From: a virus
Taxonomy: Duplodnaviria; Caudoviricetes
Direction: 5' to 3' (one strand)
Virus record (IMG/VR): IMGVR_UViG_3300007735_000917
Coordinates: 1-64,000 of that record
Length of the DNA stretch: 64,000 nt
Of the stretch, positions 762 through 53,985 are shown one piece after another. Position 1 is the first letter of the stretch, and each line of letters opens with the position of its first letter. The notes beneath the pieces are model-generated. The model was given only the letters and a program-made list of their open reading frames with translations, ran no database searches and was not told the DNA's origin. The position numbers and the translations under genes were made by a program.

Positions 762-806
762 ATCATATAAATATCATAATTATACACATTCATCAAATTA
801 AGATAT

Positions 807-1511: not shown

Positions 1512-1522
1512 ATACAGTATAA

Positions 1523-2239: not shown

Positions 2240-2250
2240 ATAATTTATAA

Positions 2251-2931: not shown

Positions 2932-2942
2932 AAATTATCGCA

Positions 2943-3320
2943 TCAAGATTCTAATTTGGTATATTTTTCTTTTACTGCAACACATGCATCAAGATAAACT
3001 TGTAATGCTTCATTATCATTTTTCACAATAGCATCCAAATAATTTGCCATTGGTGGATATGCGTTTTTACGTAAATCTGATATGGTTCTTACAACTACTT
3101 CTTCATTTATTGTTAATCCCCATTGTTGACAATATGTAAAATCAAATCCATCATAACCAACAAATGGTTCAAGTGCTGTATAATTTGTTTTGGATAATAC
3201 CAAGAAACTGGAACAATCTGGTTTTTGCGCAATGATTACAACATCATTTACTTGTTTTCTTTCCATTGGATTTCCAAACAAAGATTCAAAGTTTGTAGCC
3301 GGTAATATATAAAGTTTCAT
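2943..3320 (-). CDS. Hypothetical protein, possible tail assembly chaperone
   Basis: C-terminal LRKNAYPPMANYLDAI...AVKEKY resembles phage fibre-associated chaperone motifs; tightly packed in operon. Confidence 0.6.
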   Translation of the reverse strand: MKLYILPATNFESLFGNPMERKQVNDVVIIAQKPDCSSFLVLSKTNYTALEPFVGYDGFDFTYCQQWGLTINEEVVVRTISDLRKNAYPPMANYLDAIVKNDNEALQVYLDACVAVKEKYTKLES

Positions 3321-3321
3321 A

Positions 3322-3930
3322 TTATTGTATTAGTTTTGGTTCATTTATGTTGTTTAACTTTAACGCATCAACAATATCTTTTTGTTCCAATAAAAGTGTT
3401 TCTTTTGGTACTAACCCCACAAGTTTCAATGATTCAAGTGTTTGTGGATTGCTCATTGCATTTAGCAATTTGGCTGGGGATGGTCTACCATTTGCAATAA
3501 TTTCAGCTTGTATTTCCCGTCCAATTGTTACTGTAAATTCATTATTAGCATTGGCTTCAAACATTTGATCATCTGTATAACCAGGTATTCTGGTGGGTTC
3601 AACTATTGTATATAATTCAGCAATTAGATTTTCTAAAATCTTTATTTCTTGACGGTTTAATTCAAATGCATGTTTTTGATCATCAAGATGTGATTCAAGT
3701 TCTAATATTTCTGCTTCTAAATTTAGAATTACGTGGGGTAATGCTGGTAATTCTTTTAGATGTTTTAGTTCTGCTAATTTGGCTTTATATTTTAAATCTG
3801 CAACTTGTTCCAAAACAGCTGCTCTTTTTCTACCCACAAGAAAACCTTTTAATGTTTTTAACTTTTCCCACGGGGTACTACCTATAACTTGATAACGATA
3901 ATTAAATTCTGAATTTAGATTTGATGCCAT
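3322..3930 (-). CDS. Coiled-coil hypothetical protein
   Basis: Likely start is the ATG at 3930 (MASNLNSEFNY); the longer track ORF overlaps the upstream gene. Confidence 0.7.
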   Translation of the reverse strand: MASNLNSEFNYRYQVIGSTPWEKLKTLKGFLVGRKRAAVLEQVADLKYKAKLAELKHLKELPALPHVILNLEAEILELESHLDDQKHAFELNRQEIKILENLIAELYTIVEPTRIPGYTDDQMFEANANNEFTVTIGREIQAEIIANGRPSPAKLLNAMSNPQTLESLKLVGLVPKETLLLEQKDIVDALKLNNINEPKLIQ

Positions 3931-3952
3931 ATGCTTGTTTAATATATATTGT

Positions 3953-6046
3953 TTATGTTGTAGAATAACCTGCAGCTGCCGTACCATGTCTAGCAGTACC
4001 CACACCTGTTGTGTCAGTTGCAACTACACCTGTATTACTTACTAAATTTGTCATAGATACAGCTACACTAGTTAAACCATATCCAAATATTGCTTTATCC
4101 GTTCCATATCCAGCAGCTGCTAAATATGCCCTAGTGGTACCAATACCTGTTACATCGTTCGCAACTATACCTGTGTTGCTCACCAAATTTGTCATAGATA
4201 CTCCAGCACTAGTATAACCATAACCAAATATAGCTTTATCAGTACCATATCCTGCAGCTGCCAATCCGTTTCTTGTAGTACCAATTCCTGTAGTATCATT
4301 TGCAACTACACCAATATTAGATACTAAATTAACTATAGATACATTTGAACTGCCATTGTTACCATATCCAAATATAGCTTTATCCGTACCGTATCCAGCT
4401 GCTGCTAAATCATATCGTGCAGTGCCTACGCCTGTTGTATCTGTAGCAACCACGCCAGTGTTGCTTACCAAATTTGTCATAGATACTCCAGCACTAGTAT
4501 AACCATAACCAAATATAGCTTTATCATTTCCATATCTAGCTGCAGCTAAAGCTCGTCTAACAGTACCCACACCTGTTGTGTCAGTAGCAACTACACCAAT
4601 ATTAGATACTAAATTAACTATAGATACATTTGAACTGCCATTGTTACCATATCCAAATATAGCTTTATCCGTTCCATATCCAGCAGCTGTTAAAGCATTT
4701 CTTGCAGTCCCAATGCCAGTTGTGTCAGTAGCAACTACACCTGTATTGCTTACCAAATTTGTTACAGATGTAACTGTACCAGTGGTACCATATCCAAATA
4801 TAGCTTTGGTTGTGTTATTTGAAGTGGGTATTAAATAACTTGCTGACAAAGAATTTCTAGCATAACTGCTGGTTACACTCACATTGGTATAATCCAATAC
4901 ATTTACATATACTCTGCTTACACTGCCACTCAATGATCCACTGCCAATTAACGGTTGATTTGGATAAGTTAATCTAGTCAATTTAAGCGAACTGTTACTT
5001 AACTTCTCAACACCGTAATCCACATATTTGTCATCAACACCACCAACCAAACCAACATACCTTGTAAGCACTTGATTTCTTGAATTTGGAAATTCAGAAG
5101 TTTGTGGAGTGAAATTAGATGTATATCTAGCTACACCTTTGGTTATACGAAGTTCATCCAAATAACCTTGATACAAATATGATGTATTATAATATCCACC
5201 AATAGCTAGATAGGTTCCAGAACAATTGCCTGTGGTTGTTGCTGAACCAACAGATGTTCCATTTACATATAATGTAGATGTTCCTGAATTTCTTACTAAA
5301 GCAATGTGATACCAAGTGTTTGTTGTTATTACAGCTGTGCTTGAACCTAAATTAGTACCAGCAACAATAGCACTTAATCCGCCATTCAAACTTCCACCAG
5401 AACTGTTACCACCTTGGTATAACAATATACCGCTAGTATAAGTTGTTTTTAAACCGCCTACTGTATCTGATGTTTGTAAAAATCCTCTTTGAGTTGCGGA
5501 TGATACATCTGAAGAATAAATCCAACATTCTATAGTAAAATTCCCCGTGCCAAATGCAAAATCACTTACACTGGGACTACTTAAATAATCTCCAGTACCA
5601 TCTAAATAAGCACTTGCTCCACCAAATTTACTTTGCACAGTACTTATTTGTGAATTACCATTAACTGTAAATGTTGTTTTATTTTTGCTATTATCAGTAA
5701 ATGCAGTGCTACCATTTGTACCATTAAAATGACACAACAAGCTACAGCTATTATAATATTGATCCAATGTCGCAGCATCCCATTCTTCCACCACGCTTAC
5801 ATCCCACTTGTTGCTGCTCAAATTTAAGCTGGTTATGGTATTTGTGCTGCCTGAGGTTACATTAGTCCAAACTGTTTGTTTAGCAATACTGCCTGTTTGA
5901 ACTGATCCTCCGCCGCCGCCTCCACTTGAATTCAAAGCATAACTCGCGGTCAATGTTCTTCTTGAATAACTACTAGTGCCACTTAATGATCCTGTTATAG
6001 ATCCATTTGGCTTAATCATTGATTGTCGTAATCTTGTAAATGGCAT
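3953..6046 (-). CDS. Tail fibre/receptor-binding protein: LamG domain plus six KAIFGYG repeats (probable beta-propeller)
   Basis: SLLCHFNG..GNFTIECW..WYHIAL..GYLDELRITKGVARY LamG; six ~47-aa repeats at the C-terminus. Confidence 0.85.
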   Translation of the reverse strand: MPFTRLRQSMIKPNGSITGSLSGTSSYSRRTLTASYALNSSGGGGGGSVQTGSIAKQTVWTNVTSGSTNTITSLNLSSNKWDVSVVEEWDAATLDQYYNSCSLLCHFNGTNGSTAFTDNSKNKTTFTVNGNSQISTVQSKFGGASAYLDGTGDYLSSPSVSDFAFGTGNFTIECWIYSSDVSSATQRGFLQTSDTVGGLKTTYTSGILLYQGGNSSGGSLNGGLSAIVAGTNLGSSTAVITTNTWYHIALVRNSGTSTLYVNGTSVGSATTTGNCSGTYLAIGGYYNTSYLYQGYLDELRITKGVARYTSNFTPQTSEFPNSRNQVLTRYVGLVGGVDDKYVDYGVEKLSNSSLKLTRLTYPNQPLIGSGSLSGSVSRVYVNVLDYTNVSVTSSYARNSLSASYLIPTSNNTTKAIFGYGTTGTVTSVTNLVSNTGVVATDTTGIGTARNALTAAGYGTDKAIFGYGNNGSSNVSIVNLVSNIGVVATDTTGVGTVRRALAAARYGNDKAIFGYGYTSAGVSMTNLVSNTGVVATDTTGVGTARYDLAAAGYGTDKAIFGYGNNGSSNVSIVNLVSNIGVVANDTTGIGTTRNGLAAAGYGTDKAIFGYGYTSAGVSMTNLVSNTGIVANDVTGIGTTRAYLAAAGYGTDKAIFGYGLTSVAVSMTNLVSNTGVVATDTTGVGTARHGTAAAGYSTT

Positions 6047-6059
6047 ATTATTTTATACG

Positions 6060-9000
6060 TTATGTTGTTGAATATCCGGCAGCAGCTAAAATTCTTCTAG
6101 CAGTGCCTACACCCGTTGTATCAGTCGCAACTACACCTGTATTATTTACCAAATTTGTCATAGATACAACAGCATTGCTACTATTATAACCATATCCAAA
6201 TATAGCTTTATCACCACCATATCCCGCTGCGGCTAACATCCATCTAGCGGTACCAACACCTGTTACATCATTTGCAACTACCCCAGTATTACTTACCAAA
6301 TTTGTCATAGATACAACTCCTGTGGTATAACCATAACCAAATATAGCTTTATCACTGCCATATCCCGCAGCTGCTAGTGATTCTCTAGCAGTACCAATAC
6401 CAGTTGTATCATTTGCAACTACTCCAACGTTTGATACCAAATTAACTATAGATACATTTGTACCAGTAGTACCATATCCGAATATAGCTTTATCACCACC
6501 ATATCTAGCAGCAGCGGGACTATATCTAGCGGTACCAACGCCTGTCGTATCTGTCGCAACTACGCCTGTATTACTTACTAAATTTGTAATAGATACTTGT
6601 GTACTTGTATAACCATAACCAAATATAGCTTTATCATTTCCATAGGTAGAAGCTGCTAATGATCTTCTATCAGTACCTACACCTGTTGTATCGGTCGCAA
6701 CTATGCCAGTATTACTTACTAAATTTGTAATAGATACATTTACAGAAGTAAAACCATAACCAAATATAGCTTTATCATTTCCATATCCAGCAGCTGCCAA
6801 ATTGCTTCTAGCACTACCTACACCCGTTGTATCATTTGCAACTACGCCAGTATTACTTACTAAATTTGTAATAGATACTGCTGCACTAGTATAACCATAT
6901 CCAAATATAGCTTTGGTTGTATTATTTGAAGCAGGTAGTAAATAACTCGCTGTCAATGCTCTTCTTGAAAAACTGCTGCTAGTAGAAGAACCACCGCCAA
7001 AGTATCTGATATCAACATTTGAACCTGAAAGCGCATTTTCTGTCAAAGTCAAAGTGGATCCTGAAACTGTATAACTACCTACTCTGGATTGAACCAAACC
7101 ATCCAATATTACCAATATTTGATCATTGTTGGCTGCACTTTGTGTTAATTTTAATTGACTCACAGACGCAGTTAACACAAATGTTTGAGCCAATGATAAC
7201 GCTGGGGTAGAACTGGTACCACTAGTTCCACCACTACCAGGAGATCCAACTCCACTAGTACCGCTTGATCCTGATGTGCCACTAGCACCAGAACTACCTG
7301 ATGTACCACTAGTTCCACTAGTTCCACTCGTACCACTTGATCCGCTAGTGCCACTAGTACCAGAACTACCTGATGTTCCACTTGCACCTGAACTGCCTGA
7401 TGTACCATTTGCACCACTTGTACCACTTGATCCAGCAGCTCCTCCAAGTACATAACTGGCTGATAATGATCTTCTTGCATAACTAGCCGTACCAAAGAAG
7501 CCAACTGCGTTTGTTCTGCTACTAGTAAATTGACTTCCACTTATATTTCCTTGAACGTGTAGTTTAGCACGTGGTGTAGCCACACCAATACCAACTCTAC
7601 TACCACTAACAACCAAATCATTTGCAGCATATTTACCCGCCACAATTCTATTGTTGCTAAATACCTCAAATATAGGCAATCCTGTAATATCATTTACATT
7701 GAATAAGCTACCACTCAAATTATCAGTGACTTCAAACAATGTGCCACTACCACCATCCACCTTCAACACACTAGCATTACTACCACTACGATATACTTGT
7801 AAACTAGATACCAAACTGCTTGTTACACCTATACCAATAAAAGCACTTCCACTCTCATACAACATAGTTGAACTATTAACAGCAGAAGCATTTGTATACT
7901 TAACAAATCTATTGGTAACACCCGCCGCAATCGCAGATGTTTTACTAGCAGTAATTGGATATGTACTACCAGTTCGCAATGTACTTCCACCCCCACCACC
8001 ACTTGCATTCAATGCATAACTTGCAGTCAATGCTCTTCTTGCATAACTCGCAGTACCAGAGAATCCAATCGCATTTCTTCTGCTACTAGTAAATTGACTA
8101 CCACTTATGTTACCCACAACGTGCAACTTTGCTTGGGGTGTAGCTGTACCAATACCAACTCTGCTACCACTGACCACCAAATCATTTGCAGCATATTTAC
8201 CCGCAACAATTCTGTTGTTACTAAACACTTCAAATATAGGTAAACCAGTAATATCATTGACGTTAAACAAACTGCCACTTAAATTATCAGTAACTTCAAA
8301 CAATGTGCCACTTCCACCATCCACTTTAAGCACACTAACATTACTTCCGCTGCGGTAAACCTGTAAACTAGATACCAAACTGCTTGTTACACCTATACCA
8401 ATAAAAGCACTTCCACTTTCATATACTATAGCCGAACTTCCCACTGTAGTTGCGCCTGTATATTTGGCCAATCTATTTACAACACCAGACGATACTGTAC
8501 CACTTCCTCCTCCACCACCAGCACTAGCCAATGCATAACTTGCTGTAATAGCTCTACTTGCAGTTATAGGATATCTACTAGCCGTATTTAATCTTGTTCC
8601 CCCAGCTAAAGCAAAACTTGCTGTAATTGCTCTTCGGGAAAAACTACTTGTAATTGGATATGTACTACCTGTTCTTAATGTGGTACCACCTCCACCAGCA
8701 TTTAGTGCATAACTTGCAGTCAATGCTCTTCTTGAAAAACTACTGGTACCAAAGAACCCAACTGCATTTCGTCTACTACTAGTAAATTGACTACCGCTTA
8801 TATTACCTTGTATATGTAATTTGGTACTTGGAGTAGCAATGCCAATGCCAACACTACTAGCACTTACAACCAAAGCATTTGTACCATAAGCACCAGCAAC
8901 CATTCTGTTGTTGCTAAATACTTCTAGTATTGGAAAACCTGCTATAGTATTTACACTAAATAAACTACCGCTTAGATTATCAGTAACTTCAAATAGTGTG

Positions 9001-31510: not shown

Positions 31511-32307
31511 AACTCTATTTGATGATAAAAACACATAATATAACTGGCAAAAAATATTTATGCAAAAAACAAGCTAGAAATGATATAGAAGCCATTAAAT
31601 ACACAGGATCAGGTCTTAAATGGAAACCACATTTAAAAGAATTTGGCAAAAATTTTACTACTGAAATTTTGTTTGTTTGTCCAATTGAAAACAAAACGGA
31701 ATTTAGAAAAATAGCTATAGATTATAGTTGTAAACTTAATATTTTAAGTGATTCGAATTGGATGAATATGATATTAGAAGATGGCGGTGGTGGTTCAACA
31801 TCAGAAACAAATGGTAGTAAAGGTAAAAAATGGATTTATAAAGATGAACAAAGAAAAAGTGTATGTCAAAGTGTATTGCAAGAATATCTATCAAATGGAT
31901 GGACTCTTGGATTTCCAGAAAAATTTAAAAAAATCATTTCTGATTATAGCAAAGGAAAAATTCCGTGGAATAAAAATAAAAGTTTAAAACTTCCACATGA
32001 ATATACATCAAGAATTTGTAAGAAAAAATACAACTCTAATAAATCTAATAAATATACTAGTGAACTTAGAAGTTTAACTGCAAAAGAATGTTTAAATAGA
32101 CCAGAAGTATTATTGAAATTTAAACAACCAAGAAAATCCCCAATTACAGCAAAAAATGTAACCACGAATGAAATTAAAACGCTTGGTAGAAGACAATGGC
32201 ACGATGTTCACCAAATAGATTATAGGAAACTTTTGAAGGGATATACATCAAAAGGATGGAAGATGGTAGTGGTACCGGGACTTGAACCCGGAACTTCACC
32301 CTTATAA
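31507..32307 (+). CDS. Seg-like (GIY-YIG-related) free-standing homing endonuclease
   Basis: LYLMIKTH..TGKKYL, KYTGSG..W..HL, N...EDGGGG; NUMOD-like KGKIPWNK. Confidence 0.65.
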   Translation: MKLYLMIKTHNITGKKYLCKKQARNDIEAIKYTGSGLKWKPHLKEFGKNFTTEILFVCPIENKTEFRKIAIDYSCKLNILSDSNWMNMILEDGGGGSTSETNGSKGKKWIYKDEQRKSVCQSVLQEYLSNGWTLGFPEKFKKIISDYSKGKIPWNKNKSLKLPHEYTSRICKKKYNSNKSNKYTSELRSLTAKECLNRPEVLLKFKQPRKSPITAKNVTTNEIKTLGRRQWHDVHQIDYRKLLKGYTSKGWKMVVVPGLEPGTSPL

Positions 32308-32340
32308 GGAGTGTACTCTAACCACTTGAGTTATACCACT
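32264..32340 (-). tRNA. tRNA-Ile(UAU)
   Basis: AGTGGTA/TACCACT acceptor, CACTC-CTTATAA-GGGTG anticodon arm, TTCAAGT T-loop, encoded CCA. Confidence 0.92.
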
Positions 32341-32350
32341 ATCAAAAAAC

Positions 32351-32423
32351 TGGAGCGGGTCCGAACTTTGCATTTCGCCTTTTGATCTGGTAGACCAACG
32401 TGCTCTCTTTACACTTGACCCGC
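32351..32423 (-). tRNA. Atypical tRNA-Gly(ACC)
   Basis: GCGGGTC/GACCCGC acceptor, U73, CCA; TTGGT-CTACCAG-ATCAA anticodon arm; A8 and degenerate T arm. Confidence 0.7.
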
Positions 32424-32434
32424 ATCTTAAATAC

Positions 32435-32722
32435 AAATAGGAAGGACTAATGATTACCTCCAAGTTTCACAATATGCACCGTTATTCATCCACAATCCAT
32501 AAAGTTAATTACTCTCTATGTTAACAATTGATGGGATTGGTTTCCCACAACGACCTACGATATATCATTTATTTTAGCTACGATGTCGTTACGCTTGGAT
32601 TATAGGTTGTACGACCCACATTCCGCCATAGACTTACACTACATATTGCTACTCCAACCAATAATGATTCTTCACCACTATTGTGCGTTACCCCTATACA
32701 AAGGTTGTTCCGCCACTATCTT
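32435..32722 (-). ncRNA. ~290-nt pseudoknotted ncRNA, possibly GOLLD-related
   Basis: Terminal helix, long-range helices with G-U pairs, loop pseudoknot, own boxA-like motif, lies between tRNAs. Confidence 0.7.
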
Positions 32723-32747
32723 AAATTGTTAAAGAACTATCAAAAAA

Positions 32748-33025
32748 TGGTAGGGATGAGTGGATTCGAACCACCGCTTTACAGATTTTCGTACTACTAT
32801 AACTTTCGTTACTCATTTCTGATTTGTAGTCTGGACTTTCTCTTCATCATAACATTTCTGTTTTAGATGTTCGCCGTTAAGTCTCTACACCTTCTCATTT
32901 CTGAACTTGGCTCGGGATTGGCAGTTAAGCTTTCCCCGAATTTGACGAATTCTACTTTGAAGATTTCTCTTCAAGCACTCAATTTACGCTAAAGTCTGTT
33001 GCCTCTTCCGCTGGGCTACATCCCC
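32748..33025 (-). tRNA. tRNA-Leu(UAA), intron-split (exons 33025-32992 and 32789-32748), short variable arm
   Basis: Spliced 76 nt: GGGGATG..ACAGA CTT^AAAA TCTGT..GGTGG TTCGAAT CCACT CATCCCT ACCA. Confidence 0.92.
32790..32991 (-). ncRNA. Group I intron (trnL-UAA type), 202 nt, no ORF
   Basis: P AAATTCGGGGAA, Q AATCCCGAGC, R GTGTAGAGACT, S AAGAGAAAGTCC; P1 ACUU/GAGU with U-G splice pair; terminal G. Confidence 0.92.
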
Positions 33026-33065: not shown

Positions 33066-33093
33066 ATCTTACCACATCATTCTCTGATGTCAA
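33066..33093 (-). promoter_or_regulatory. Sigma70-type promoter with extended -10
   Basis: TTGACA-N16-TAAGAT with TGG before the -10. Confidence 0.75.
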
Positions 33094-33109
33094 CTGCTTT
33101 TTCAAAATT

Positions 33110-33186
33110 TGGTAGCTAGGGTCAGATTCGAACTGACACTGTTTCGTTTTTGAGACGAATGCCTCCTGCCTTTGGGCTACCTAGCC
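33110..33186 (-). tRNA. tRNA-Leu(CAA), short variable arm
   Basis: GGCTAGG/CCTAGCT, TTCGT-CTCAAAA-ACGAA, 5-nt variable loop, TTCGAAT, ACCA. Confidence 0.9.
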
Positions 33187-33289
33187 ATTTAATCTTATAC
33201 AATAACTATACCACAAAATCAAAAAATTTAAGTGAAATTTAATTTCATTTTATACTTATAAGTGTAAAGAAATTACTAATCCTTACACT

Positions 33290-33748
33290 ATGAAATACGA
33301 TAAAAATAAAATGATTCAACTTCAATCCCAAGGAGAAACTTATGATAATATTGCAAAGAAAATGGGTTGTTCTAAATGGACGGTTGATTACCAACTCAAT
33401 CCAAAAAGAAAAAAATGTCAAACTAAATATGACAAACAAAAACAAAAAACAGATACTCTTTATTTTAAGAGAAAACGTTTTTTGTCAGTTGGAAACAAGG
33501 TTCCATTTACATTAAAAGAACTAAAAAATAAAATTGGAACTAATCCAAAATGTTATCTTACCGGAGAATCAATTGATTTGTCAAATCCAAGTGATTACAG
33601 CTTGGATCATATCATTCCTGTATCTAAAGGAGGTGAAAGTTCTCTAAAGAACTTAGGAATTATTAAATCTGATATAAATCAAGCAAAATATAATCTTACA
33701 CCAGAAGAATTTCTCTCATTATGTAAGCGAGTATTAAGACAAATTTAA
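33290..33748 (+). CDS. HNH endonuclease with N-terminal HTH
   Basis: TYDNIAKKMGCSKWTV HTH; CYLTG, SLDHIIPVSKGG, N, NQAK. Confidence 0.85.
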   Translation: MKYDKNKMIQLQSQGETYDNIAKKMGCSKWTVDYQLNPKRKKCQTKYDKQKQKTDTLYFKRKRFLSVGNKVPFTLKELKNKIGTNPKCYLTGESIDLSNPSDYSLDHIIPVSKGGESSLKNLGIIKSDINQAKYNLTPEEFLSLCKRVLRQI

Positions 33749-33751
33749 AAA

Positions 33752-33845
33752 TGGTGGTTCCGCCCGGATTCGAACCGAGACCGTGCTCAAATCTAGAGCT
33801 TATCAACGTTATAAGCGTTGCGTTCTACCGTTAAACTACGGAACC
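33752..33845 (-). tRNA. tRNA with UAU anticodon and long variable arm (94 nt)
   Basis: GGTTCCG/CGGAACC, CAACG-CTTATAA-CGTTG, 24-nt variable region with GCTC/GAGC stem, TTCGAAT, ACCA. Confidence 0.85.
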
Positions 33846-34958: not shown

Positions 34959-34989
34959 AATTGTTTATAAAGAACTAAAAATTAAAAAT

Positions 34990-35152
34990 TATGTTGGGTG
35001 TGATTATTGAATACTTTGTCCACCCAACAAACAGAGTATACCATGCGCTAACCCCGCAACCAAGAAGTTTTTTAAGAGAACTTCCAACTCTAGGGGCGTA
35101 GTTTCCTATACCCTCCACCAAGTTGTTTTTATTAGATAAACAACCAAACATC
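34990..35152 (-). ncRNA. Unknown ~160-nt structured RNA
   Basis: Stems GGUUGUUU/AAACAACU, AGGGUAUA/UAUACUCU, GAAGUU/AACUUC, UGUUGGGUG/CACCCAACA. Confidence 0.55.
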
Positions 35153-35155
35153 AAA

Positions 35156-35315: not shown

Positions 35316-35353
35316 ATTAAAATTGTTTTAAAGAACTTATTTACTACTTTTTT

Positions 35354-35381
35354 ATCTTACCACGATTTTTTGTTTTGTCAA
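35354..35381 (-). promoter_or_regulatory. Sigma70-type promoter with extended -10
   Basis: TTGACA-N16-TAAGAT. Confidence 0.75.
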
Positions 35382-35383
35382 CT

Positions 35384-35497
35384 AAGTATTTCATTCTTTC
35401 GTCGGTGACCCCCTTTGGTTAAAGGCCAAGGCAGTTCCACCATACAAAGATGTTCTAGAGGAGTGCTTCTCCCACCACGCTGAGAGAACGAATACTT
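35384..35497 (-). ncRNA. Unknown ~110-nt GC-rich structured RNA with its own promoter
   Basis: UUCGU/ACGAA, UCUC/GAGA, UCCUCU/AGGGGG, two 7-nt-loop hairpins, possible GGUGG/UCACC pseudoknot. Confidence 0.6.
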
Positions 35498-35508
35498 ACT
35501 ACTTCTTT

Positions 35509-35536
35509 ATCTTACCACTAAGTTTTCAAAGATCAA
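35509..35536 (-). promoter_or_regulatory. Sigma70-type promoter
   Basis: TTGATC-N16-TAAGAT with extended -10. Confidence 0.65.
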
Positions 35537-35604
35537 CTTCTTTTTTCAAGAAGTTTTGAGGTAAATTATAAATATAATCAAATATTTGTAAAATTAGCAA
35601 AAAA

Positions 35605-37316: not shown

Positions 37317-37859
37317 TTAGTTATTGTCAATATAGTTGCGATAAAAACCCATTACAATTCCACTAGTAGTACCCACATTAAGTGATCGTACACTGCCATA
37401 TGCTGGAACAGTAACAATATAGTCACTGTTATCAAGAATATAATCACTCAATCCAGCCTTTTCTTCGCCAAATACAAACATTGGCTTATCTACACCAGTA
37501 AATACCCAGTGGTTAAAAATAGATACTGTCTTGTCACTATACTTGGGAATGTTATTTTCCACAGCAATTAGTGTATAACCGTTATCATTTACATAATCAA
37601 CAAAGTCTTCTTCTGTCTTAATATGATTTAAATCTGTATAGTGATGAGTACCCACCGTACCACGACGGTCCCATTGCTTGCTTCCTCCTACATACATAGC
37701 TTCCTTGAAGCCAAAGAAGTTTGCATTGCGTACCAAAGTGGAGAGGTTAAAGTCTCCATTAACGTGCATCATAGCAACACCTGCTTCGATACAACTATTC
37801 TTACAGTAAGACTTAATATCGTCTACTGTCTTGCTCTTTAAATGATCCAAAACATTCAT
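37317..37859 (-). CDS. SpoU/TrmH (SPOUT) family RNA 2'-O-methyltransferase
   Basis: NLSTLVRNANFFG, FVFGEEKAGL, VPAYGSVRSLNVGT. Confidence 0.88.
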   Translation of the reverse strand: MNVLDHLKSKTVDDIKSYCKNSCIEAGVAMMHVNGDFNLSTLVRNANFFGFKEAMYVGGSKQWDRRGTVGTHHYTDLNHIKTEEDFVDYVNDNGYTLIAVENNIPKYSDKTVSIFNHWVFTGVDKPMFVFGEEKAGLSDYILDNSDYIVTVPAYGSVRSLNVGTTSGIVMGFYRNYIDNN

Positions 37860-40561: not shown

Positions 40562-41404
40562 ATGAAAGGGATTATTTTAGCTGGAGGTACCGGTAGTAGA
40601 TTATATCCATTAACCAGTACAATAAATAAACAATTGTTGCCTGTTTATGACAAGCCGATGATTTATTATCCATTTTGCACATTATTGTCGTGTGGTATTA
40701 AAGATTTTTGCATTATTTCTTCTCCTGAATATTTGCCTTCTTATGAAAAGTTATTTGGAGATGGCACTCAATTGGGAGTTAAGATTACTTATAAAGTGCA
40801 ATATAAGCCAAGAGGAATAGCTGAAAGTTTCATTATAGCCGAAGACTTTATTGGTGATGATAATGTTGCTCTTATACTAGGAGACAATATATTCCACGGA
40901 ATGCCCAGAGTCAAGCCTTTACTTGAAGGTGCAATTATTTTTGGTTATGAAGTTAATGATCCTAGAGCTTATGGAGTTATTGAATTTGATAGTGAAAACA
41001 ACGTAATAAGCATAGAAGAAAAACCAGTTGAACCCAAGAGCAATTATGCGGTACCAGGCTTATATTTTTATGACAAAAGAGTAGTTCAGTATGCTAAATC
41101 ACTTAAGCCTTCCAACAGAGGTGAAATTGAAATAACTGATTTAAACTTAATATATCTTGACAAAGCGCAGCTTACCGCTGTAAAATTTGCTAAAGGCACA
41201 GCGTGGTTAGATGCTGGAAGTGCTGAAACATTATTTGAAAGTAGTGCTTATATACAAGCTATTCAATCAAGACAGGGAATTAAAATAGGATGTATAGAAG
41301 AAGAGTGCTACAAGCGCAAATATATAAATAAAGCGCAATTGCAGTGCTTAATAGGTAAAATGCCTGAAAGTGAATACAAAAAATATTTATTAAAATTATT
41401 ATGA
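40562..41404 (+). CDS. rmlA: Glucose-1-phosphate thymidylyltransferase
   Basis: MKGIILAGGTGSRLYPLT..NKQLLPVYDKPMIYYP, LILGDNIF, EKP..PKSNYAVPGLYFYD. Confidence 0.95.
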   Translation: MKGIILAGGTGSRLYPLTSTINKQLLPVYDKPMIYYPFCTLLSCGIKDFCIISSPEYLPSYEKLFGDGTQLGVKITYKVQYKPRGIAESFIIAEDFIGDDNVALILGDNIFHGMPRVKPLLEGAIIFGYEVNDPRAYGVIEFDSENNVISIEEKPVEPKSNYAVPGLYFYDKRVVQYAKSLKPSNRGEIEITDLNLIYLDKAQLTAVKFAKGTAWLDAGSAETLFESSAYIQAIQSRQGIKIGCIEEECYKRKYINKAQLQCLIGKMPESEYKKYLLKLL

Positions 41405-42267
41405 TTATATTATTCGGATCAAGCGGTTATATTGGAAGTGAATTCAAAAAGCAATTAGCTGAATTAAAGCTACCTGTTTTTCTTTGGCCAAATGCGCATA
41501 AAACCACTTTTGCAGATTTGGAAAAGTGGTATGATGAAGCTGGATATCCACTCATAGGCGCTGTAATAAATGCAGCTGGATATACTGGCAAACCTAATGT
41601 GGATGCATGCGAATTAAACAAAGAAGATACTATCCACGGCAATATTGTATGGCCGCAAATATTAACTGATTGGTGTATGTTAAATGATATACCTTTAGCG
41701 CATGTTTCCAGTGGTTGTATATATGAAGGTAAAAGAGCCGATGGCAATCCTTTTACTGAAGAAGATGTACCAAACTTTAGTTTTGCGCAAAATAACTGTA
41801 GTTTCTACAGTGGTACCAAAGTAATAGGTGAACAAGTAGTAAAGAAGTGGGAAAAGCACTATATTTGGAGATTGCGAATTCCATTTGAAGAGTTTGATAA
41901 TTCTAGAAATTATATAAGCAAAATATTAAAGTATGAAAGACTGTTAGATGCTGAAAATAGTGTAAGCAACAAACAAGAATTTGTAAGTGCTTGTATTCAA
42001 ACCATTACCAAAGAAGTTCCATATGGTACATATAATGTGACCAATGGTGGTTATATCACGACCAAGGGTGTAGTAGAAAAGTTTAAGAATACAATTGCAA
42101 AAGACAAAACCTTTACATTTGTGGAAGAAGATGAATTTTATAAAAATGTAGTCAAAACACCCCGATCAAATTGCGTGATGAGCAACGAAAAGTTGTTGTC
42201 AACTGGAATCAAAATGAGAACCGCAGACGAAGCTTTTGACCATTGCATTAATAATTGGACTGTATGA
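41401..42267 (+). CDS. RmlD-like NAD-dependent sugar epimerase/reductase
   Basis: GSSGYIG, NAAGYTGKPNVDACE, SSGCIY, YSGTK. Confidence 0.85.
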   Translation: MIILFGSSGYIGSEFKKQLAELKLPVFLWPNAHKTTFADLEKWYDEAGYPLIGAVINAAGYTGKPNVDACELNKEDTIHGNIVWPQILTDWCMLNDIPLAHVSSGCIYEGKRADGNPFTEEDVPNFSFAQNNCSFYSGTKVIGEQVVKKWEKHYIWRLRIPFEEFDNSRNYISKILKYERLLDAENSVSNKQEFVSACIQTITKEVPYGTYNVTNGGYITTKGVVEKFKNTIAKDKTFTFVEEDEFYKNVVKTPRSNCVMSNEKLLSTGIKMRTADEAFDHCINNWTV

Positions 42268-43220
42268 ATATATTAGTAACAGGAGGATGTGGATTTATTG
42301 GAAGTCACTTTATAGAAGAAATTCTAAAAAGAGATGATGTTGTTATGGTTTATAACATTGATTGTGGTACTTATGCTGCAAACAAAAAACTTCCCTTTCA
42401 AAAAAATCCTAGATATCACAGATTGTCACTGGACATTGCTGCGCCTTATTTTCCAGATCAAAAGAAATATATTGATTCGTTAAATTTAGATTATGTGATT
42501 CATTTTGCAGCAGAATCGCACGTGGATAACTCTATCAAAGGACCAAAAAGATTTATTGAAACAAACATTATCGGTACTTTTAATCTATTAGAAATGCTTA
42601 AGGGTACAAACATAAAGAAGTTTATTCACGTATCCACCGATGAAGTGTATGGATCATTGAATCACAAAGAAGGATCTTTTACTACAGACAGTCCTTATAG
42701 AGCAAATAATCCATATTCAGCTACTAAAGCTGCCAGCGATCTACTGGTTAGAAGTTATAACAAAACTTATAATTTCCCAGCAATTATTACCAATTGCAGC
42801 AACAACTTTGGGTCCAGACAATATACTGAAAAGATGATTCCAGTATGTATTCAGAAACTTCTCAACAAAGAAGCCATACCTTTATATGGTAATGGGTCGA
42901 ATGTAAGAGACTGGATCTATGTCAAAGACCACGTTAATGCACTTATATGCGTTCTATTAGATGGTAAAATAGGAAAACAGTATTTGATAGGGTCTGACAA
43001 CGAACTATCTAACTATGAGCTTATACACGTGATTAAAGATGTATATAGTACTATAACTGGAATAGAAGTAGACTGGGAATGGTTTAAATATGTTGAAGAC
43101 CGTAAAGGACACGATAGTAGATACAGCATTGACAATCGTGACTTCAAGATGGAGTTTCCTCAATTTAACACAACTAAATTTGATATTGCTATTTTGGAAA
43201 CGGTCAAATCATATTTATAA
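42264..43220 (+). CDS. rmlB: dTDP-glucose 4,6-dehydratase
   Basis: ILVTGGCGFIGS, HFAAESHVD, HVSTDEVYG, PYSATKA, RDWIYVKDH. Confidence 0.95.
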   Translation: MNILVTGGCGFIGSHFIEEILKRDDVVMVYNIDCGTYAANKKLPFQKNPRYHRLSLDIAAPYFPDQKKYIDSLNLDYVIHFAAESHVDNSIKGPKRFIETNIIGTFNLLEMLKGTNIKKFIHVSTDEVYGSLNHKEGSFTTDSPYRANNPYSATKAASDLLVRSYNKTYNFPAIITNCSNNFGSRQYTEKMIPVCIQKLLNKEAIPLYGNGSNVRDWIYVKDHVNALICVLLDGKIGKQYLIGSDNELSNYELIHVIKDVYSTITGIEVDWEWFKYVEDRKGHDSRYSIDNRDFKMEFPQFNTTKFDIAILETVKSYL

Positions 43221-52399: not shown

Positions 52400-52873
52400 A
52401 TGAATAATATAAATCATCTATTGTCTCAAAATGGCATACTATCATCATTCAATATATGTAAAAAAGTGAGTCCCACAAAAGTAAAGAATATAAAAAAGAA
52501 GTTGTTGAAAGGTGGTGTACCCGAAAATAAAATTGAAGATGAAGTGTATAAACATATTATAAATAATCACATAGATGATTCAATAATTGATGATATACCA
52601 GGAATAATATTAGAAGGTGTGCCACCTAAAATCAAAATTGCCCCAGCTGTTCAAAAGAAAATAGTTTCAGCTTCAAATGAGATTAGTGAATATTTTAAAA
52701 AGAATAAATTTACAAAGGAAGAAATAATATTGTATATACAAGCTGTATTTTTTCTTTGTGGTATCACAAATGACGATGTTGCAGATTTTAAAGAAAAATA
52801 TAATATTAATAACAGCAAAGATGAAGACTATTTAGATGAAGAGGACGAAGACGAAGAATCAGGTTTTGAATGA
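52400..52873 (+). CDS. Hypothetical protein with acidic tail
   Basis: 157 aa. Confidence 0.65.
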   Translation: MNNINHLLSQNGILSSFNICKKVSPTKVKNIKKKLLKGGVPENKIEDEVYKHIINNHIDDSIIDDIPGIILEGVPPKIKIAPAVQKKIVSASNEISEYFKKNKFTKEEIILYIQAVFFLCGITNDDVADFKEKYNINNSKDEDYLDEEDEDEESGFE

Positions 52874-53985
52874 AATATCTTATGGAAATATATAATATTA
52901 ATGACGTTGTTCCGTTTATGGAAAACAAAAAAGTTGCATTTGTTACAGGTGTGACTGGTCAAGATGGCAGCTTTATGGTAGATTATCTGTTGAAAAACAC
53001 AGACTATTTCATCGTGGGAGGTGCTAGAAGACTAAGTATCAAAAATCACGAAAACATTAGACACTTAGAAAACAACCCCAGATTTAAATTAGTTAACTTT
53101 GATTTGAGTGATGCACATAGTATTAGCAAAATTGTAGAAAAGTTAAAACCAGAGTACTTTATTAATTTGGCAGCACAGACATTCGTTGGTAGTAGCTGGG
53201 ACTTTCCAGCTCAAACTTGGGAATGTAATACTACTGGGGTAATTCATATTCTAGAAGCTATTCGTCAACACAAACCAACTTGTAGATTCTACAACGCCGG
53301 TTCATCCGAAGAATATGGTAATGTCGCTTATGTTCCTCAAGATGAAAATCATCCATCCAAACCTCGTAGTCCATATGGAGCAAGCAAATCAGCTGCTAGA
53401 CAACTGGTTAAAGTATACAGAGAAAGTTATAATTTGTATGCGGTACAAGGATTGTTGTTTAATCACGAAGGTACTAGACGAGGTGAAGAATTTGTTACCC
53501 GTAAGATTACCAAGGGGGTAGCTAGAATTAAAAAAGCAATATCTGAAGGTAAAAGCTTTGTACCAATTGAATTAGGCAATGTTAAAGCTAAAAGAGATTG
53601 GAGTGACGCTGAAGACTTTGTAGATGGTATTTGGAAAATGTTAAATCAAACTCATCCCAATGAATATGTACTTTCAAGCAATGAAACACATACCATCGCA
53701 GAATTTGTACAGTATGCATTTAAAGTTGCTGATATTGACGGTGGATGGCACGGAGAAGCAGAATCTGCGGAGTTTAGTATTACCACAAAAGATGCTATTA
53801 AATATGAACCAGTGGCATCTGTATTGGTAAAGATCAATCCTAAGTTTTATAGACCCGCCGAAGTAGATTTATTGTTGGGTGATAGTACCAAAGCTAGAAA
53901 CGAATTAAAGTGGGAACCTAAAACTTCATTTGAACAGCTTGTAGAAAAGATGGTCAAGAATGATTTGACTCAAATTGGTTTATAA
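52870..53985 (+). CDS. gmd: GDP-mannose 4,6-dehydratase
   Basis: VTGVTGQDGS, NLAAQ, PRSPYGASK, LFNHE..RRGEEFVTRKIT, RPAEVDLLLGD; exact start uncertain. Confidence 0.95.
   Translation: MKYLMEIYNINDVVPFMENKKVAFVTGVTGQDGSFMVDYLLKNTDYFIVGGARRLSIKNHENIRHLENNPRFKLVNFDLSDAHSISKIVEKLKPEYFINLAAQTFVGSSWDFPAQTWECNTTGVIHILEAIRQHKPTCRFYNAGSSEEYGNVAYVPQDENHPSKPRSPYGASKSAARQLVKVYRESYNLYAVQGLLFNHEGTRRGEEFVTRKITKGVARIKKAISEGKSFVPIELGNVKAKRDWSDAEDFVDGIWKMLNQTHPNEYVLSSNETHTIAEFVQYAFKVADIDGGWHGEAESAEFSITTKDAIKYEPVASVLVKINPKFYRPAEVDLLLGDSTKARNELKWEPKTSFEQLVEKMVKNDLTQIGL

What the first reader, a model, noticed from the sequence alone, without database searches (positions are those of the whole stretch)
32435..32722. 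Compact pseudoknotted ~290-nt RNA between tRNAs (minimal GOLLD-like?)
Seen on the minus strand: terminal helix AGAUAG/CUAUUU; a 10-bp long-range helix GCAAUAUGUA (32640-49)/UGCAUAUUGU (32469-78); UAUAAUCCA/UGGAUUGUG; AACGAC/GUCGUU. The hairpin GUGGGA-AACCAA-UCCCAU has a loop that can pair with UUGGUU (32656-61) as a pseudoknot, and there is a 3' GGAGG/CCUUCC hairpin. The G-U pairs fix the strand, and a boxA-like motif precedes it. Established: GOLLD and ROOL are large ornate RNAs found near phage tRNAs. Inference: an unusually small GOLLD-like core or a new family.
Basis: partly seen in the sequence, partly recalled or inferred. Interest (0 to 1): 0.8.

Follow-up and report, generated by a model that had tools for sequence, protein, structure and literature searches.

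The report
Circular manA-like RNA in phage tRNAs
The flagged stretch is a real gene for a roughly 293-base folded RNA of freshwater phages: an enlarged, uncatalogued cousin of the cage-forming manA RNA that sits in a tRNA operon and whose two ends are found joined in river and lake RNA data, so it may be circular.

Summary
Real feature. Window 32430-32724 (- strand) encodes a conserved structured RNA of about 293 nt. I collected 22 distinct variants (71-99% identical). A 79-pair structure is 99.2% paired against 34-48% in slid controls. It has 15 pairs with compensatory changes against 0-3.

It is not GOLLD, and no Rfam family reaches its threshold. The nearest family is manA (RF01745). Weak hits run both ways (manA model E=0.17 here, 0.0011 on a relative; my family model hits 1 of 2 true manA RNAs, E=2.6e-4). 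The two share end modules. With ROOL it shares only a roughly 20-nt 3' motif.

New here:
- RNA-library contigs of 3 runs carry the 3' end joined to the 5' end. Two are closed 323-nt cycles (293+30). The joint is absent from all DNA I could search.
- The ends look tRNA-like.
- The RNA holds two copies of the manA-type 5' module and two self-complementary loops.

Best reading: a stable RNA cut from the tRNA operon, probably circularised and self-assembling. Its function is unproven.

This scan has found enlarged manA-like RNAs before on other DNA. Verdict: new variant of a known kind.

The parts
32430..32724 (-). The RNA itself, about 293-295 nt. In my numbering, RNA position 1 is window 32722.
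   Evidence: The X1 contig of 295 nt covers exactly 32430-32724. The X3 and X6 contigs of 323 nt close on themselves at 32722->32430. Model R1 scores 355.4 bits over 32430-32728.
32716..32721 (-). Closing helix P1, 5' strand (RNA positions 2-7)
   Evidence: Helix 1, 97.2% of cells paired. L184 keeps it with a different sequence.
32435..32440 (-). Closing helix P1, 3' strand (RNA positions 283-288)
   Evidence: helix 1.
32684..32715 (-). Module A: UGGCGGAA, then a hairpin with an A-rich asymmetric internal loop. It is manA P2-like, and its first 10 nt match positions 6-15 of class II tRNA-Leu genes.
   Evidence: The cmscan manA alignment. Helix 2. The pattern hit two tRNA-Leu genes in register.
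32659..32683 (-). Hairpin P3; the five central loop bases, GAAGA, are invariant
   Evidence: Helix 3: 7 of 10 pairs carry compensatory changes. Loop identical in 22 of 22.
32636..32653 (-). AGUA, then the 5' strand of the long-range helix
   Evidence: Helices 4-5. AGUA is conserved (J columns). Aligned to the same element of ROOL.
32462..32482 (-). 3' strand of the long-range helix, then GAAACUU (the motif shared with ROOL)
   Evidence: Of the 29 stretches found by the pattern scan, 13 are ROOL by cmscan.
32596..32633 (-). Inner closing-helix 5' strand plus module B, a second copy of module A. Its loop holds a 4-nt palindrome.
   Evidence: Helices 6-7. My hand alignment gives 19 of 40 identical positions to module A, read. 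Loop is GUAC in 13, GAUC in 6 and GGAC in 3 of 22.
32549..32595 (-). Near-invariant core with two AUCGUAG words (manA P4-like stem)
   Evidence: Helices 8-10 never vary, apart from 2 single cells.. The manA model aligns its P4 here on L250.
32531..32548 (-).
   Evidence: Helix 11. 10 loop variants. Pseudoknot not supported.
32498..32520 (-). Hairpin with loop AGUAAUUAA, which holds a self-complementary 6-mer
   Evidence: Helix 12: 3 of 7 pairs compensatory. Loop is UAAUUA in 18 and UAAUUG in 4 of 22.
32488..32493 (-). Inner closing-helix 3' strand
   Evidence: Helix 6, 100% paired.
32441..32461 (-). 3' hairpin: 5-bp stem and 11-nt loop, abutting P1 (manA P5-like and T-arm-like in position)
   Evidence: Helix 13. 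manA alignment. Loop identical in 18 of 19.
32726..32736 (-). boxA-like word in the leader
   Evidence: The only exact match in the window. Present in 18 of 19 flank contexts, with 1-2 changes in L242 and L228.
33066..33093 (-). Promoter-like site of the transcription unit
   Evidence: TTGACA-16-TAAGAT with TG, 10 of 12. This is a consensus match only.
32748..33025 (-). Upstream tRNA split by a group I intron (about 32790-32991)
   Evidence: RF00028, 72.2 bits. Exons read. Intron circle joint 32989->32789 in X6.
32351..32423 (-). Downstream tRNA-Gly-like gene (anticodon loop reads ACC, T arm degenerate). It starts 6 nt after the RNA's 3' end.
   Evidence: Fold. Follows the RNA in 18 of 19 contexts. 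Missed by ARAGORN.

Best explanation
A free-standing, stable, structured RNA gene of large freshwater phages. It belongs to an uncatalogued, enlarged branch of the manA type.

Shown:
- It is conserved and folds into a covariation-supported, multi-branched structure closed by a terminal helix.
- It sits in a tRNA transcription unit, downstream of a boxA-like word.
- In nearly every relative a tRNA-Gly-like gene follows it.
- RNA libraries hold it as a discrete unit of about 293 nt. In 3 runs its 3' end is joined to its 5' end.

Inferred:
- The terminal 6-7-bp helix stacked on the abutting 5-bp hairpin, together with a 5' end that matches tRNA positions 6-15, mimics the acceptor/T-arm of a tRNA.
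- The tRNA-processing nucleases therefore cut the RNA out of the operon transcript. RNase P would act at the 5' end, and 3' trimming would leave about 4-5 nt beyond the helix.
- An RNA ligase then seals the two ends, which the helix holds side by side. The closing helix becomes a capped hairpin, and the RNA becomes resistant to exonucleases.

Inferred by analogy with manA and ROOL:
- Copies bind each other into a defined multimer, through its invariant loops, two of which are self-complementary.
- What the assembly does during infection is not known.
For: Conservation:
- The RNA is 94.6-98.3% identical in three relatives (L001, L002, L005) whose neighbouring 255-aa protein is only 70-75% identical.
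- There are 22 distinct variants, down to 71% identity.

Structure:
- 79 pairs, 99.2% of cells paired against 33.6-47.5% when partners are slid.
- 15 pairs with changes on both sides, against 0-3.
- 0 of 500 shuffles reach any of the five measures.

Expression and ends:
- All 4 RNA-library runs laid hold it.
- X1 has a 295-nt contig covering 32430-32724.
- X3 and X6 come from different studies. Each has a 323-nt contig (293 plus a 30-letter overlap) with the joint 32722->32430.
- X1 has loose ends that spell the same joint.
- The same data show a circle joint for the neighbouring group I intron, a known kind of RNA circle.

The joint is missing from DNA:
- 0 hits in viral contigs.
- 0 hits in about 400 fetched loci and the window.

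manA kinship:
- RF01745 spans the RNA at 14.4 bits, E=0.17.
- It reappears at 15.2-21.8 bits in 5 of 9 relatives' loci, with E=0.0011 on L250 alone.
- My model R1 hits the true manA of P-SSM4 at its exact place: 14.3 bits, E=2.6e-4, next-best hit 6.0 bits.

tRNA-like 5' end:
- A 5'-module pattern hit two bacterial tRNA-Leu genes where the shared 10-mer starts at tRNA position 6. It starts at RNA position 6 here too.
- The tRNA-Ile of the same operon starts with the same 5 letters after the same 3 flanking letters.

Context:
- 18 of 19 flank contexts have the tRNA-Gly-like gene 9-12 nt after the closing helix.
- 4 of 19 have a TTGACA/TATATA promoter about 35 nt upstream.

Self-complementary loops: GUAC or GAUC in 19 of 22; UAAUUA or UAAUUG in 22 of 22.

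Literature:
- manA RNAs form 8-, 10- and 60-mers through kissing loops in vitro (bioRxiv 10.64898/2026.07.01.735769; outline and passages read).
- ROOL and GOLLD form cages and lie in tRNA arrays (review PMC12990946; passages read).
Against: manA kinship is weak:
- No manA score comes near the gathering score of 55.2 bits.
- The manA of P-SSM2 is not hit by R1.
- The inner half alone hits nothing in Rfam.
- The manA model aligns its 3' part to different hairpins in different members.

The family is narrow. Most variants are over 85% identical, so the compensatory changes come from few independent events.

The circle rests on assembled contigs only, not on raw reads. Contigs cannot show ends, strand or level, as the tool states. 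The joint could come from tandem gene copies in an unsampled relative, or from template switching at ends that the helix holds together. One X1 joint piece continues into a 5' module that differs from this family's.

No RNA ligase was found among the 25 window ORFs scanned. The window is only part of the genome.

RNase P cleavage, ligation and multimer formation are all untested here.

In 3 of 22 variants the 4-nt loop palindrome is lost.
Confidence: 0.6

Rival explanations
1. An independent RNA family. It only shares widespread building blocks with manA and ROOL: an A-rich internal loop, a loop-E-like AGUA/GAA element and a hairpin with a UAAU-type loop. It does not descend from them.
For: - All cross-family scores are low: 14-22 bits.
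- The middle 200 nt has no counterpart in manA.
- The inner half alone gives no Rfam hit.
- The manA model finds nothing in 4 ROOL-bearing records.
- The 5' part finds nothing collinear in 13 ROOL loci.
Against: - Hits run both ways at exactly the right places and cover both ends in the same order: closing helix, UG, module, then the 5-bp hairpin with an 11-nt loop abutting the closing strand.
- E=0.0011 on L250 is for a search of all 4227 families.
- Of the 22 non-family stretches hit by the 17-base 3' motif, 13 are ROOL. That is far more than chance for so rare an RNA.
Confidence: 0.2
2. The joined ends are not a circular RNA. They reflect tandem copies of the gene in unsampled phage genomes, or reverse-transcriptase template switching or ligation during library making.
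For: - Only contigs were available.
- In this window a 9-nt direct repeat flanks the RNA (read). It could mediate duplication or switching.
- One X1 piece joins the 3' region to a 5' module of different sequence (table 7).
Against: - 0 joints in viral contigs and 0 in all fetched DNA contexts, of which 19 are distinct.
- No locus holds two copies.
- Two runs of different studies give contigs of exactly 293+30 letters.
- The commonest joint has one U fewer than a switch within the repeat would give (my reading).
Confidence: 0.3
3. A cis-acting leader of the tRNA operon, acting in antitermination, processing or folding for the tRNA-Gly-like gene that follows. It would not be an RNA with a life of its own.
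For: - A boxA-like word lies just upstream.
- The RNA is tightly linked to the tRNA-Gly-like gene in 18 of 19 contexts and is promoter-proximal in 4 of 19.
- manA was first proposed as cis-regulatory (PMC2864571; passages read).
Against: - RNA contigs hold it as a separate 293-295-nt unit. The joints exclude the flanks.
- Its size, invariant loops and covarying helices go far beyond what a processing signal needs.
- In L233 a different tRNA follows it.
Confidence: 0.08
4. Decayed remains of duplicated tRNA or intron sequence, with no function.
For: - The 5' end matches tRNA positions 6-15.
- The array holds a group I intron and odd tRNAs.
- One contig (L003/L015) carries a copy lacking the first ~80 nt.
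Against: - 94.6-98.3% identity where the neighbouring protein is 70-75% identical.
- 15 compensatory pairs.
- Core blocks invariant across 22 variants.
Confidence: 0.02

Closest known systems
manA RNA motif (Rfam RF01745; Weinberg et al. 2010, PMC2864571; cage structures in bioRxiv 10.64898/2026.07.01.735769)
   Same: - Phage-borne.
- A closing helix followed by UG and a hairpin with an A-rich asymmetric internal loop.
- A 5-bp hairpin with an 11-nt loop starting UA, directly abutting the 3' strand of the closing helix.
- A GUCGUUGUGGG...CCCA stretch like manA P4-P5.
- Weak model hits in both directions.
- A sigma-70-type promoter directly upstream in some members.
   Different: - About 100 nt longer.
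- The manA P3 domain is missing.
- The 5' module is present twice, and a long AGUA/GAA-flanked helix encloses an inner unit.
- Scores are 14-22 bits against a cut-off of 55.2.
- It lies in a tRNA operon with no protein gene downstream, whereas the two true manA RNAs I fetched lie before purL/hsp20 and after pstS.
- Joined ends are seen here. The preprint text has no occurrence of 'circular' or 'tRNA'.
ROOL RNA (Rfam RF03087)
   Same: - Lies in phage tRNA arrays.
- Shares a conserved motif of about 20-30 nt: AGUAGC-helix ... helix-GUGAAA-UU-hairpin with a GGUAA.CA loop.
- ROOL is reported to contain a loop-E motif and to form cages (PMC12990946).
   Different: - Half the size.
- The ROOL model gives 14.6 bits against 99.1, E=1.1.
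- The 5' part is not collinear with any of 13 ROOL RNAs.
- R1's hits on ROOL loci (17.8 and 15.4 bits) are on loci I had selected by that very motif, so they are not independent.
GOLLD RNA
   Same: A large, ornate, phage-associated RNA near tRNA genes.
   Different: No match even at E<=10. Several times larger.
tRNA and tRNA-like processing substrates
   Same: - A closing helix of 6-7 pairs, then UG and a 3-bp GCG/CGC stem in the register of tRNA positions 8-12.
- A 5-bp hairpin abutting the 3' strand, where the T arm would be.
- A 3' overhang of about 4-5 nt at the joint.
- The 10-mer at RNA positions 6-15 equals tRNA positions 6-15 in two tRNA-Leu genes.
   Different: - Not found by ARAGORN or by the tRNA model.
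- No anticodon arm, no 7-nt T loop and no CCA.
- About 200 nt sit where the D loop to the variable arm would be.
Excised group I intron circles; RNA circles from permuted group II introns (Roth et al. 2021, seen only in the reference list of PMC12990946)
   Same: A bacterial or phage RNA whose ends are joined. The neighbouring group I intron shows such a joint in the same data.
   Different: This RNA matches no intron model and is not inside a split gene. How it would be closed is unknown.

Membership tests
manA (RF01745) | Reaches Rfam's gathering score (55.2 bits) | tested here: not met
   14.4 bits on the window. 15.2-21.8 bits in 5 of 9 relatives' loci and none in the other 4.
manA (RF01745) | Closing helix, UG, then a hairpin with a conserved A-rich asymmetric internal loop (5' GAA..AA, 3' UAA) | tested here: met
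   Aligned with high posterior probability. Helices 1-2. The stretch is nearly invariant in the alignment.
manA (RF01745) | 5-bp hairpin with an 11-nt loop directly abutting the 3' strand of the closing helix | tested here: met
   alignment. Helix 13. Loop identical in 18 of 19.
manA (RF01745) | Middle domains P3 (multi-stem with a GUGGUG loop) and P4 | tested here: inconclusive
   P3 columns are deleted in both alignments. P4/P5 align to the central stem and hairpin on L250 but not on the window. The inner half alone gives no hit.
manA (RF01745) | Reciprocal recognition: a model of this family finds true manA RNAs | tested here: inconclusive
   1 of 2. P-SSM4 is hit at 14.3 bits, E=2.6e-4. 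P-SSM2 is not hit above noise.
manA (RF01745) | Lies in the 5' UTR of a protein-coding gene (as first described) | tested here: not met
   tRNA genes lie on both sides and there is no ORF downstream on the strand.
manA (RF01745) | Forms closed homo-oligomers through kissing loops | not testable with these tools
   Only suggestive: two self-complementary loops.
ROOL (RF03087) | Reaches the gathering score (99.1 bits); about 580 nt with P1-P16 | tested here: not met
   14.6 bits, E=1.1, partial and cut off. The RNA is 293 nt.
ROOL (RF03087) | Conserved core motif GUGAAA-UU-hairpin with a GGUAA.CA loop, preceded by an AGUAGC helix | tested here: met
   The pattern scan found 29 stretches: 7 of this family, 13 ROOL (110-367 bits) and 9 others.
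ROOL (RF03087) | Collinear similarity outside that motif | tested here: not met
   nhmmer with alignment columns 5-90 against 13 ROOL loci: best E=1.1, and that hit is not collinear.
GOLLD | Any match to the Rfam model | tested here: not met
   Not listed at E<=10.
tRNA | Cloverleaf recognised by ARAGORN or RF00005 | tested here: not met
   No call in 32430-32724.
Circular RNA | 3' end covalently joined to 5' end in RNA and not in DNA | tested here: inconclusive
   The joint is in contigs of 3 of 4 RNA runs laid. It is absent from viral contigs and all fetched loci. No raw reads, no matched DNA run and no enzymatic test.

The most novel reading that the evidence does not exclude
manA, this roughly 293-nt family and ROOL are one lineage of tRNA-derived phage RNAs. 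On this reading:
- They keep an acceptor/T-arm-like end so that the host's tRNA-processing enzymes release them from tRNA operons.
- Their ends are then ligated, giving exonuclease-proof circles.
- The circles assemble through self-complementary loops into RNA-only shells during infection.

This family, with a manA-like unit nested inside another and a ROOL-type 3' motif, would be the link between the small and the large cage RNAs.
Probability: 0.15. Interest if true: 0.9.

Novelty: new variant of a known kind. Interest (0 to 1): 0.65.

Why it matters
manA, ROOL and GOLLD are the known natural RNAs that build cages without protein, yet nobody knows what the cages do or how the RNAs are made in cells.

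This family offers handles on both questions:
- It is a separately excised RNA inside a tRNA operon.
- Its ends look like tRNA ends and are found joined in environmental RNA.
- It carries motifs of both manA and ROOL.

If the circle and the tRNA-like processing hold, they would explain why such RNAs sit in tRNA arrays. They would also give direct, cheap experiments: RNase P cleavage, RNase R resistance, native gels and cryo-EM. If they do not hold, this is still one more well-supported member of an uncatalogued group that Rfam's manA model misses.

Tried and rejected
Searches that found nothing:
- GenBank phages hold nothing similar: blastn of 32340-32760 gave no match.
- No whole genome is held for the window.

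Pattern scans that gave only chance hits:
- The 5'-module pattern in genome contigs: 18 stretches. One (L389) is a 569-nt contig carrying this same RNA, two are tRNA-Leu genes, and the rest look like chance hits.
- L227, L231 and L253 were chance hits and were left out of the alignment.

Nested double-manA idea: the inner half alone (32478-32645) hits no Rfam family at E<=10. The idea therefore rests only on my hand comparison of the two modules.

All-against-all column covariation was swamped by shared ancestry and was discarded.

manA to ROOL link: RF01745 finds nothing in 4 ROOL-bearing records, and a fifth was not held.

I looked for covariation between the variable hairpin loop and the module A loop, by eye. 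None was consistent.

Coverage:
- The stretches flanking the RNA (32200-32271 and 33100-33250) had no cover in the 4 RNA runs. The tRNA-Gly-like gene had contig depths of 0-59, against 26-6432 in the bins over the RNA.
- The tool warns that contig depth and uncovered parts cannot rank genes, so I do not count this as evidence.

Not done:
- Supplementary files of the papers were closed and not seen. The manA secondary-structure figures (S13-16 of the preprint) could bear on the module comparison.
- No structure prediction or complex job applies to RNA, so none was run.
Full report
WHAT IS THERE.
The window is phage DNA. It holds a 1689-aa fibre protein with collagen repeats and an endosialidase-chaperone domain, a lysozyme, more collagen-repeat proteins and sugar-nucleotide enzymes. 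No whole genome is held for it.

On the - strand lies a tRNA array: 8 genes by ARAGORN, plus a tRNA split by a group I intron (RF00028, 72.2 bits). The flagged stretch lies between that intron-bearing tRNA (32748-33025) and a 73-nt tRNA-Gly-like gene (32351-32423; fold). tRNA-Ile follows.

A promoter-like site (TTGACA-16-TAAGAT with TG) lies at 33066-33093. No terminator-like site lies between it and tRNA-Ile on this strand. No ORF of 60 aa or more lies on the - strand in the stretch.

IS IT MORE THAN CHANCE?
Alone, the sequence folds only a little better than shuffles: z = -2.58, with 3 of 200 shuffles as good. The case rests on relatives.

I collected them in three ways:
- A neighbouring protein brought 7 viral loci.
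- Motif scans of viral contigs and one scan of metagenome contigs brought more.
- nhmmer sorted homologues from chance hits.

L227, L231 and L253 were dropped as chance hits. I aligned 22 distinct variants, 4 of them cut by a contig end. They are 71.4-98.6% identical to the window's copy. The copies in L001, L002 and L005 are 94.6-98.3% identical, while the adjacent 255-aa protein is 70-75% identical.

On a 79-pair structure (RNAalifold plus the terminal helix), one search gives:
- 99.2% of cells form standard pairs, against 33.6-47.5% when partners are slid by 1-3 columns.
- 15 pairs change on both sides, against 0-3.
- No shuffle of 500 reaches any of the five measures.

The best-supported helices are the hairpin at 32659-32683 (7 of 10 pairs compensatory), the hairpin at 32498-32520 (3 of 7) and the module B hairpin (2 of 9). 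The central core never varies, so it says nothing about pairing, but it is under strong constraint.

Caveat: most variants are close kin, so the compensatory changes come from few independent events.

Five of the described helices are in the supported structure. The UAUAAUCCA/UGGAUUGUG pairing is possible in 97.3% of cells, but it has no double change and excludes two covarying helices. It may be an alternative or an intermolecular pairing.

The loop pseudoknot fails: 84.8% paired, no better than shuffles. The loop takes 10 different forms while its proposed partner stays nearly constant. The boxA-like word is there, as the only exact copy in the window.

EXPRESSION, ENDS AND THE JOINT.
Thirteen rows on record as RNA hold part of the stretch. 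They are river, lake and freshwater metatranscriptomes. I laid four of them, and only assembled contigs were available.
- X1 has a 295-nt contig covering exactly 32430-32724.
- X3 and X6 come from different studies and years. Each has a 323-nt contig whose two ends overlap by 30 letters, giving a joint from 32722 back to 32430 (give or take 2). That is a closed cycle of 293 nt, the form a de Bruijn assembler gives a circle.
- X1 has short pieces whose loose ends spell the same joint, in two versions that differ by one U.
- In the same data the neighbouring group I intron shows a 201-nt circle joint. This is a known behaviour of such introns, and it shows that RNA-level joints of this phage lineage are captured.

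The joint string is absent from viral contigs. It is also absent from every locus fetched, which include 19 distinct DNA contexts of the gene. No locus holds two copies.

So a circular RNA is the simplest reading. Three alternatives cannot be excluded without raw reads and matched DNA: tandem copies in an unsampled genome, template switching at ends held together by the closing helix, or ligation in library making. In a circle the closing helix would become a hairpin capped by 6-7 nt.

WHAT IT IS RELATED TO.
No Rfam family reaches its threshold.

At permissive thresholds two families appear on the RNA:
- manA: 14.4 bits, E=0.17, the whole model spanning the whole RNA.
- ROOL: 14.6 bits, E=1.1.

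manA hits recur in 5 of 9 relatives' loci at 15.2-21.8 bits. On L250 alone the E-value is 0.0011.

The aligned parts are:
- the closing helix;
- the UG that follows it;
- a hairpin whose internal loop has GAA..AA on one side and UAA on the other;
- at the 3' end, a 5-bp hairpin with an 11-nt loop that abuts the closing strand.

On L250 the model instead places its P4 and P5 on the central invariant stem and the hairpin after it. That hairpin reads much like the manA consensus.

For the reverse test I fetched two true manA RNAs, from P-SSM2 (181.6 bits) and P-SSM4 (184.1 bits). Three other cyanophages had none. I searched them with my family model R1, filters off. The P-SSM4 manA is the top hit at its exact place (14.3 bits, E=2.6e-4; next best 6.0 bits). 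The P-SSM2 manA is not found.

This is weak but two-way evidence of kinship at the ends. The middle is different.

ROOL. A 17-base 3' motif of this RNA found 29 stretches in viral contigs. Seven are this family. I gave 17 of the other 22 to cmscan, and 13 of those are ROOL at 110-367 bits. The remaining 9 are not ROOL: 4 by cmscan, and 5 by eye as copies of one of those four. So this motif is truly shared with ROOL's conserved core: a helix flanked by AGUA and GAA, then UU and a hairpin with a GGUAA.CA loop.

The likeness stops there:
- The 5' 85 columns of the family find nothing collinear in the 13 ROOL loci.
- R1's hits on two ROOL loci are on loci chosen by the motif itself.
- The manA model finds nothing in 4 ROOL-bearing records.
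- GOLLD never appears.

1. The 5' module occurs twice, at RNA positions 1-40 and 88-127. Each copy is a 7-nt strand of a closing helix, then UGGCGGAA, then a hairpin with a yGUAyA loop, then UAA. By my hand alignment, 19 of 40 positions are identical. The second copy opens an inner unit with its own closing helix, the invariant core stem, a manA-P5-like hairpin and one more hairpin. The RNA therefore looks like a manA-type unit nested in another. The Rfam model does not see the inner unit on its own, so this stays a hypothesis.
2. The ends look like tRNA ends.
   - A pattern made from the 5' module hit two bacterial tRNA-Leu genes. There the shared 10-mer begins at tRNA position 6, and it begins at RNA position 6 here, counted from the 5' end seen in the contigs.
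   - The closing helix (6 pairs plus an A-G) is followed by UG and a 3-bp GCG/CGC stem, as in positions 8-12 of a tRNA.
   - The 5-bp 3' hairpin abuts the closing strand where a T arm would.
   - The joint leaves about 4-5 nt beyond the helix, the length of a discriminator plus CCA.
   - tRNA-Ile of the same operon begins with the same five letters after the same three flanking letters.
3. Two loops are self-complementary. One holds GUAC (13 of 22), GAUC (6) or GGAC (3). The other holds UAAUUA (18 of 22) or UAAUUG (4). The GUAC-to-GAUC change keeps the palindrome.

CONTEXT IN RELATIVES.
- In 18 of 19 distinct contexts the tRNA-Gly-like gene starts 9-12 nt after the closing helix. In L233 another tRNA does.
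- Upstream there is a tRNA 3' end plus a U-run and the boxA-like word in 15 of 19 contexts.
- In the other 4 (L233, L242, L249, L016) a TTGACA/TATATA promoter lies about 35 nt upstream, so there the RNA heads the operon.
- The true manA RNAs sit before protein genes, and that of P-SSM2 has its own TTGACA/TATAAT promoter.

HOW IT MOST LIKELY WORKS.
- Shown: it is a conserved, folded RNA gene in a tRNA operon, held in RNA libraries as a unit of about 293 nt with joined ends.
- Inferred, about 0.4: the tRNA-like end lets RNase P and 3' trimming enzymes release it.
- Inferred, about 0.6 that circles exist in cells: a ligase seals the ends. No ligase was found among the 25 ORFs scanned, and the window is only part of the genome.
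- Inferred by analogy, about 0.4-0.5: copies assemble through the invariant and self-complementary loops, as manA RNAs do in vitro (8-, 10- and 60-mers through kissing loops; preprint) and as ROOL does (review PMC12990946).
- Unknown: the role of such assemblies in infection.

KNOWN OR NEW.
manA (2010) and its cages (2026 preprint) are in print. The preprint treats manA as a putative 5'-UTR element of under 200 nt, and its text contains neither 'circular' nor 'tRNA'.

Full-text searches found no description of an enlarged manA-type RNA in tRNA arrays, or of a circular form. The searches were:
- manA RNA + cryo-EM;
- manA + ROOL + GOLLD;
- manA motif + phage + tRNA;
- ROOL + GOLLD + tRNA + circular.

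Papers outside the library and supplements were not seen.

Within this scan, earlier agents reported enlarged manA-like RNAs in phage tRNA arrays on other DNA. These include one with joined ends and one with two cores. Those notes gave me the manA lead and the preprint, and I tested the claims on this locus myself.

VERDICT.
This is a real RNA and a new variant of a known kind. The GOLLD reading is not supported, and the ROOL likeness is a shared motif only. The points worth follow-up are the joined ends and the tRNA-like ends.

Noticed in passing
window 32748-33025 (-): A tRNA split in the anticodon loop by a group I intron of about 201-202 nt (about 32790-32991); ARAGORN missed it. Joining the exons gives an anticodon loop that most simply reads UAA, yet the tRNA has a short variable loop. 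X6 RNA contigs carry a 201-nt circle joint of the intron (32989->32789).
   Followed up: partly
window 32351-32423 (-): A tRNA-Gly-like gene with ACC in the anticodon loop and a degenerate T arm. It follows the RNA in 18 of 19 relatives' contexts, where the anticodon loop reads ACC, UCC or UCU. ARAGORN did not call it.
   Followed up: partly
L003:11270-11525 (same contig as L015): In one 171-kb viral contig the first ~80 nt of the RNA, the spacer and the 3' half of the upstream tRNA are missing. The tRNA's 5' half is fused at its anticodon loop to RNA position ~82. This is either a recent deletion or an assembly fault.
   Followed up: partly
window 32425-32742: One X8 contig skips the whole RNA and its leader (316 nt), with 8 other letters in between. 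Some relatives may therefore lack the gene as a cassette. The shorter side is only 28 letters, so this is weak.
   Followed up: no
It could be an alternative fold or a contact between copies.
   Followed up: partly
window 33290-33748 (+): A free-standing HNH endonuclease ORF (PF13395, E=6.6e-08) on the opposite strand inside the tRNA array, near the intron-bearing tRNA.
   Followed up: no
window 37317-37859 (-): A SpoU-family RNA methyltransferase (PF00588, E=4.5e-22) on the same strand, upstream of the array.
   Followed up: no
window 40562-43220 (+) and 52870-53985 (+): Sugar-nucleotide genes: nucleotidyl transferase, RmlD-like, a 4,6-dehydratase and GDP-mannose 4,6-dehydratase. Classical manA and wcaG RNAs were described next to mannose and exopolysaccharide genes. 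Here these genes lie 8-20 kb away.
   Followed up: no
L236:198-302 (+): A weak wcaG RNA match (27.5 bits against a cut-off of 42, E=0.23) in a relative's tRNA array. Other folded RNAs may therefore sit between these tRNAs.
   Followed up: no
L018:5993-6103 (-): A skipping-rope RNA (RF02924, 43.8 bits, over its cut-off) in a ROOL-bearing phage tRNA array.
   Followed up: no
window 33752-33845, 34959-35155, 35316-35604 (-): A 94-nt 'tRNA-Ile' call with an odd anticodon position, and unannotated gaps between tRNAs in the same array. I did not examine them.
   Followed up: no
L389:505-569 (+): A 569-nt contig binned into a Verrucomicrobiota MAG carries the start of this same RNA with its phage-type leader. 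It is probably phage DNA in the bin.
   Followed up: no
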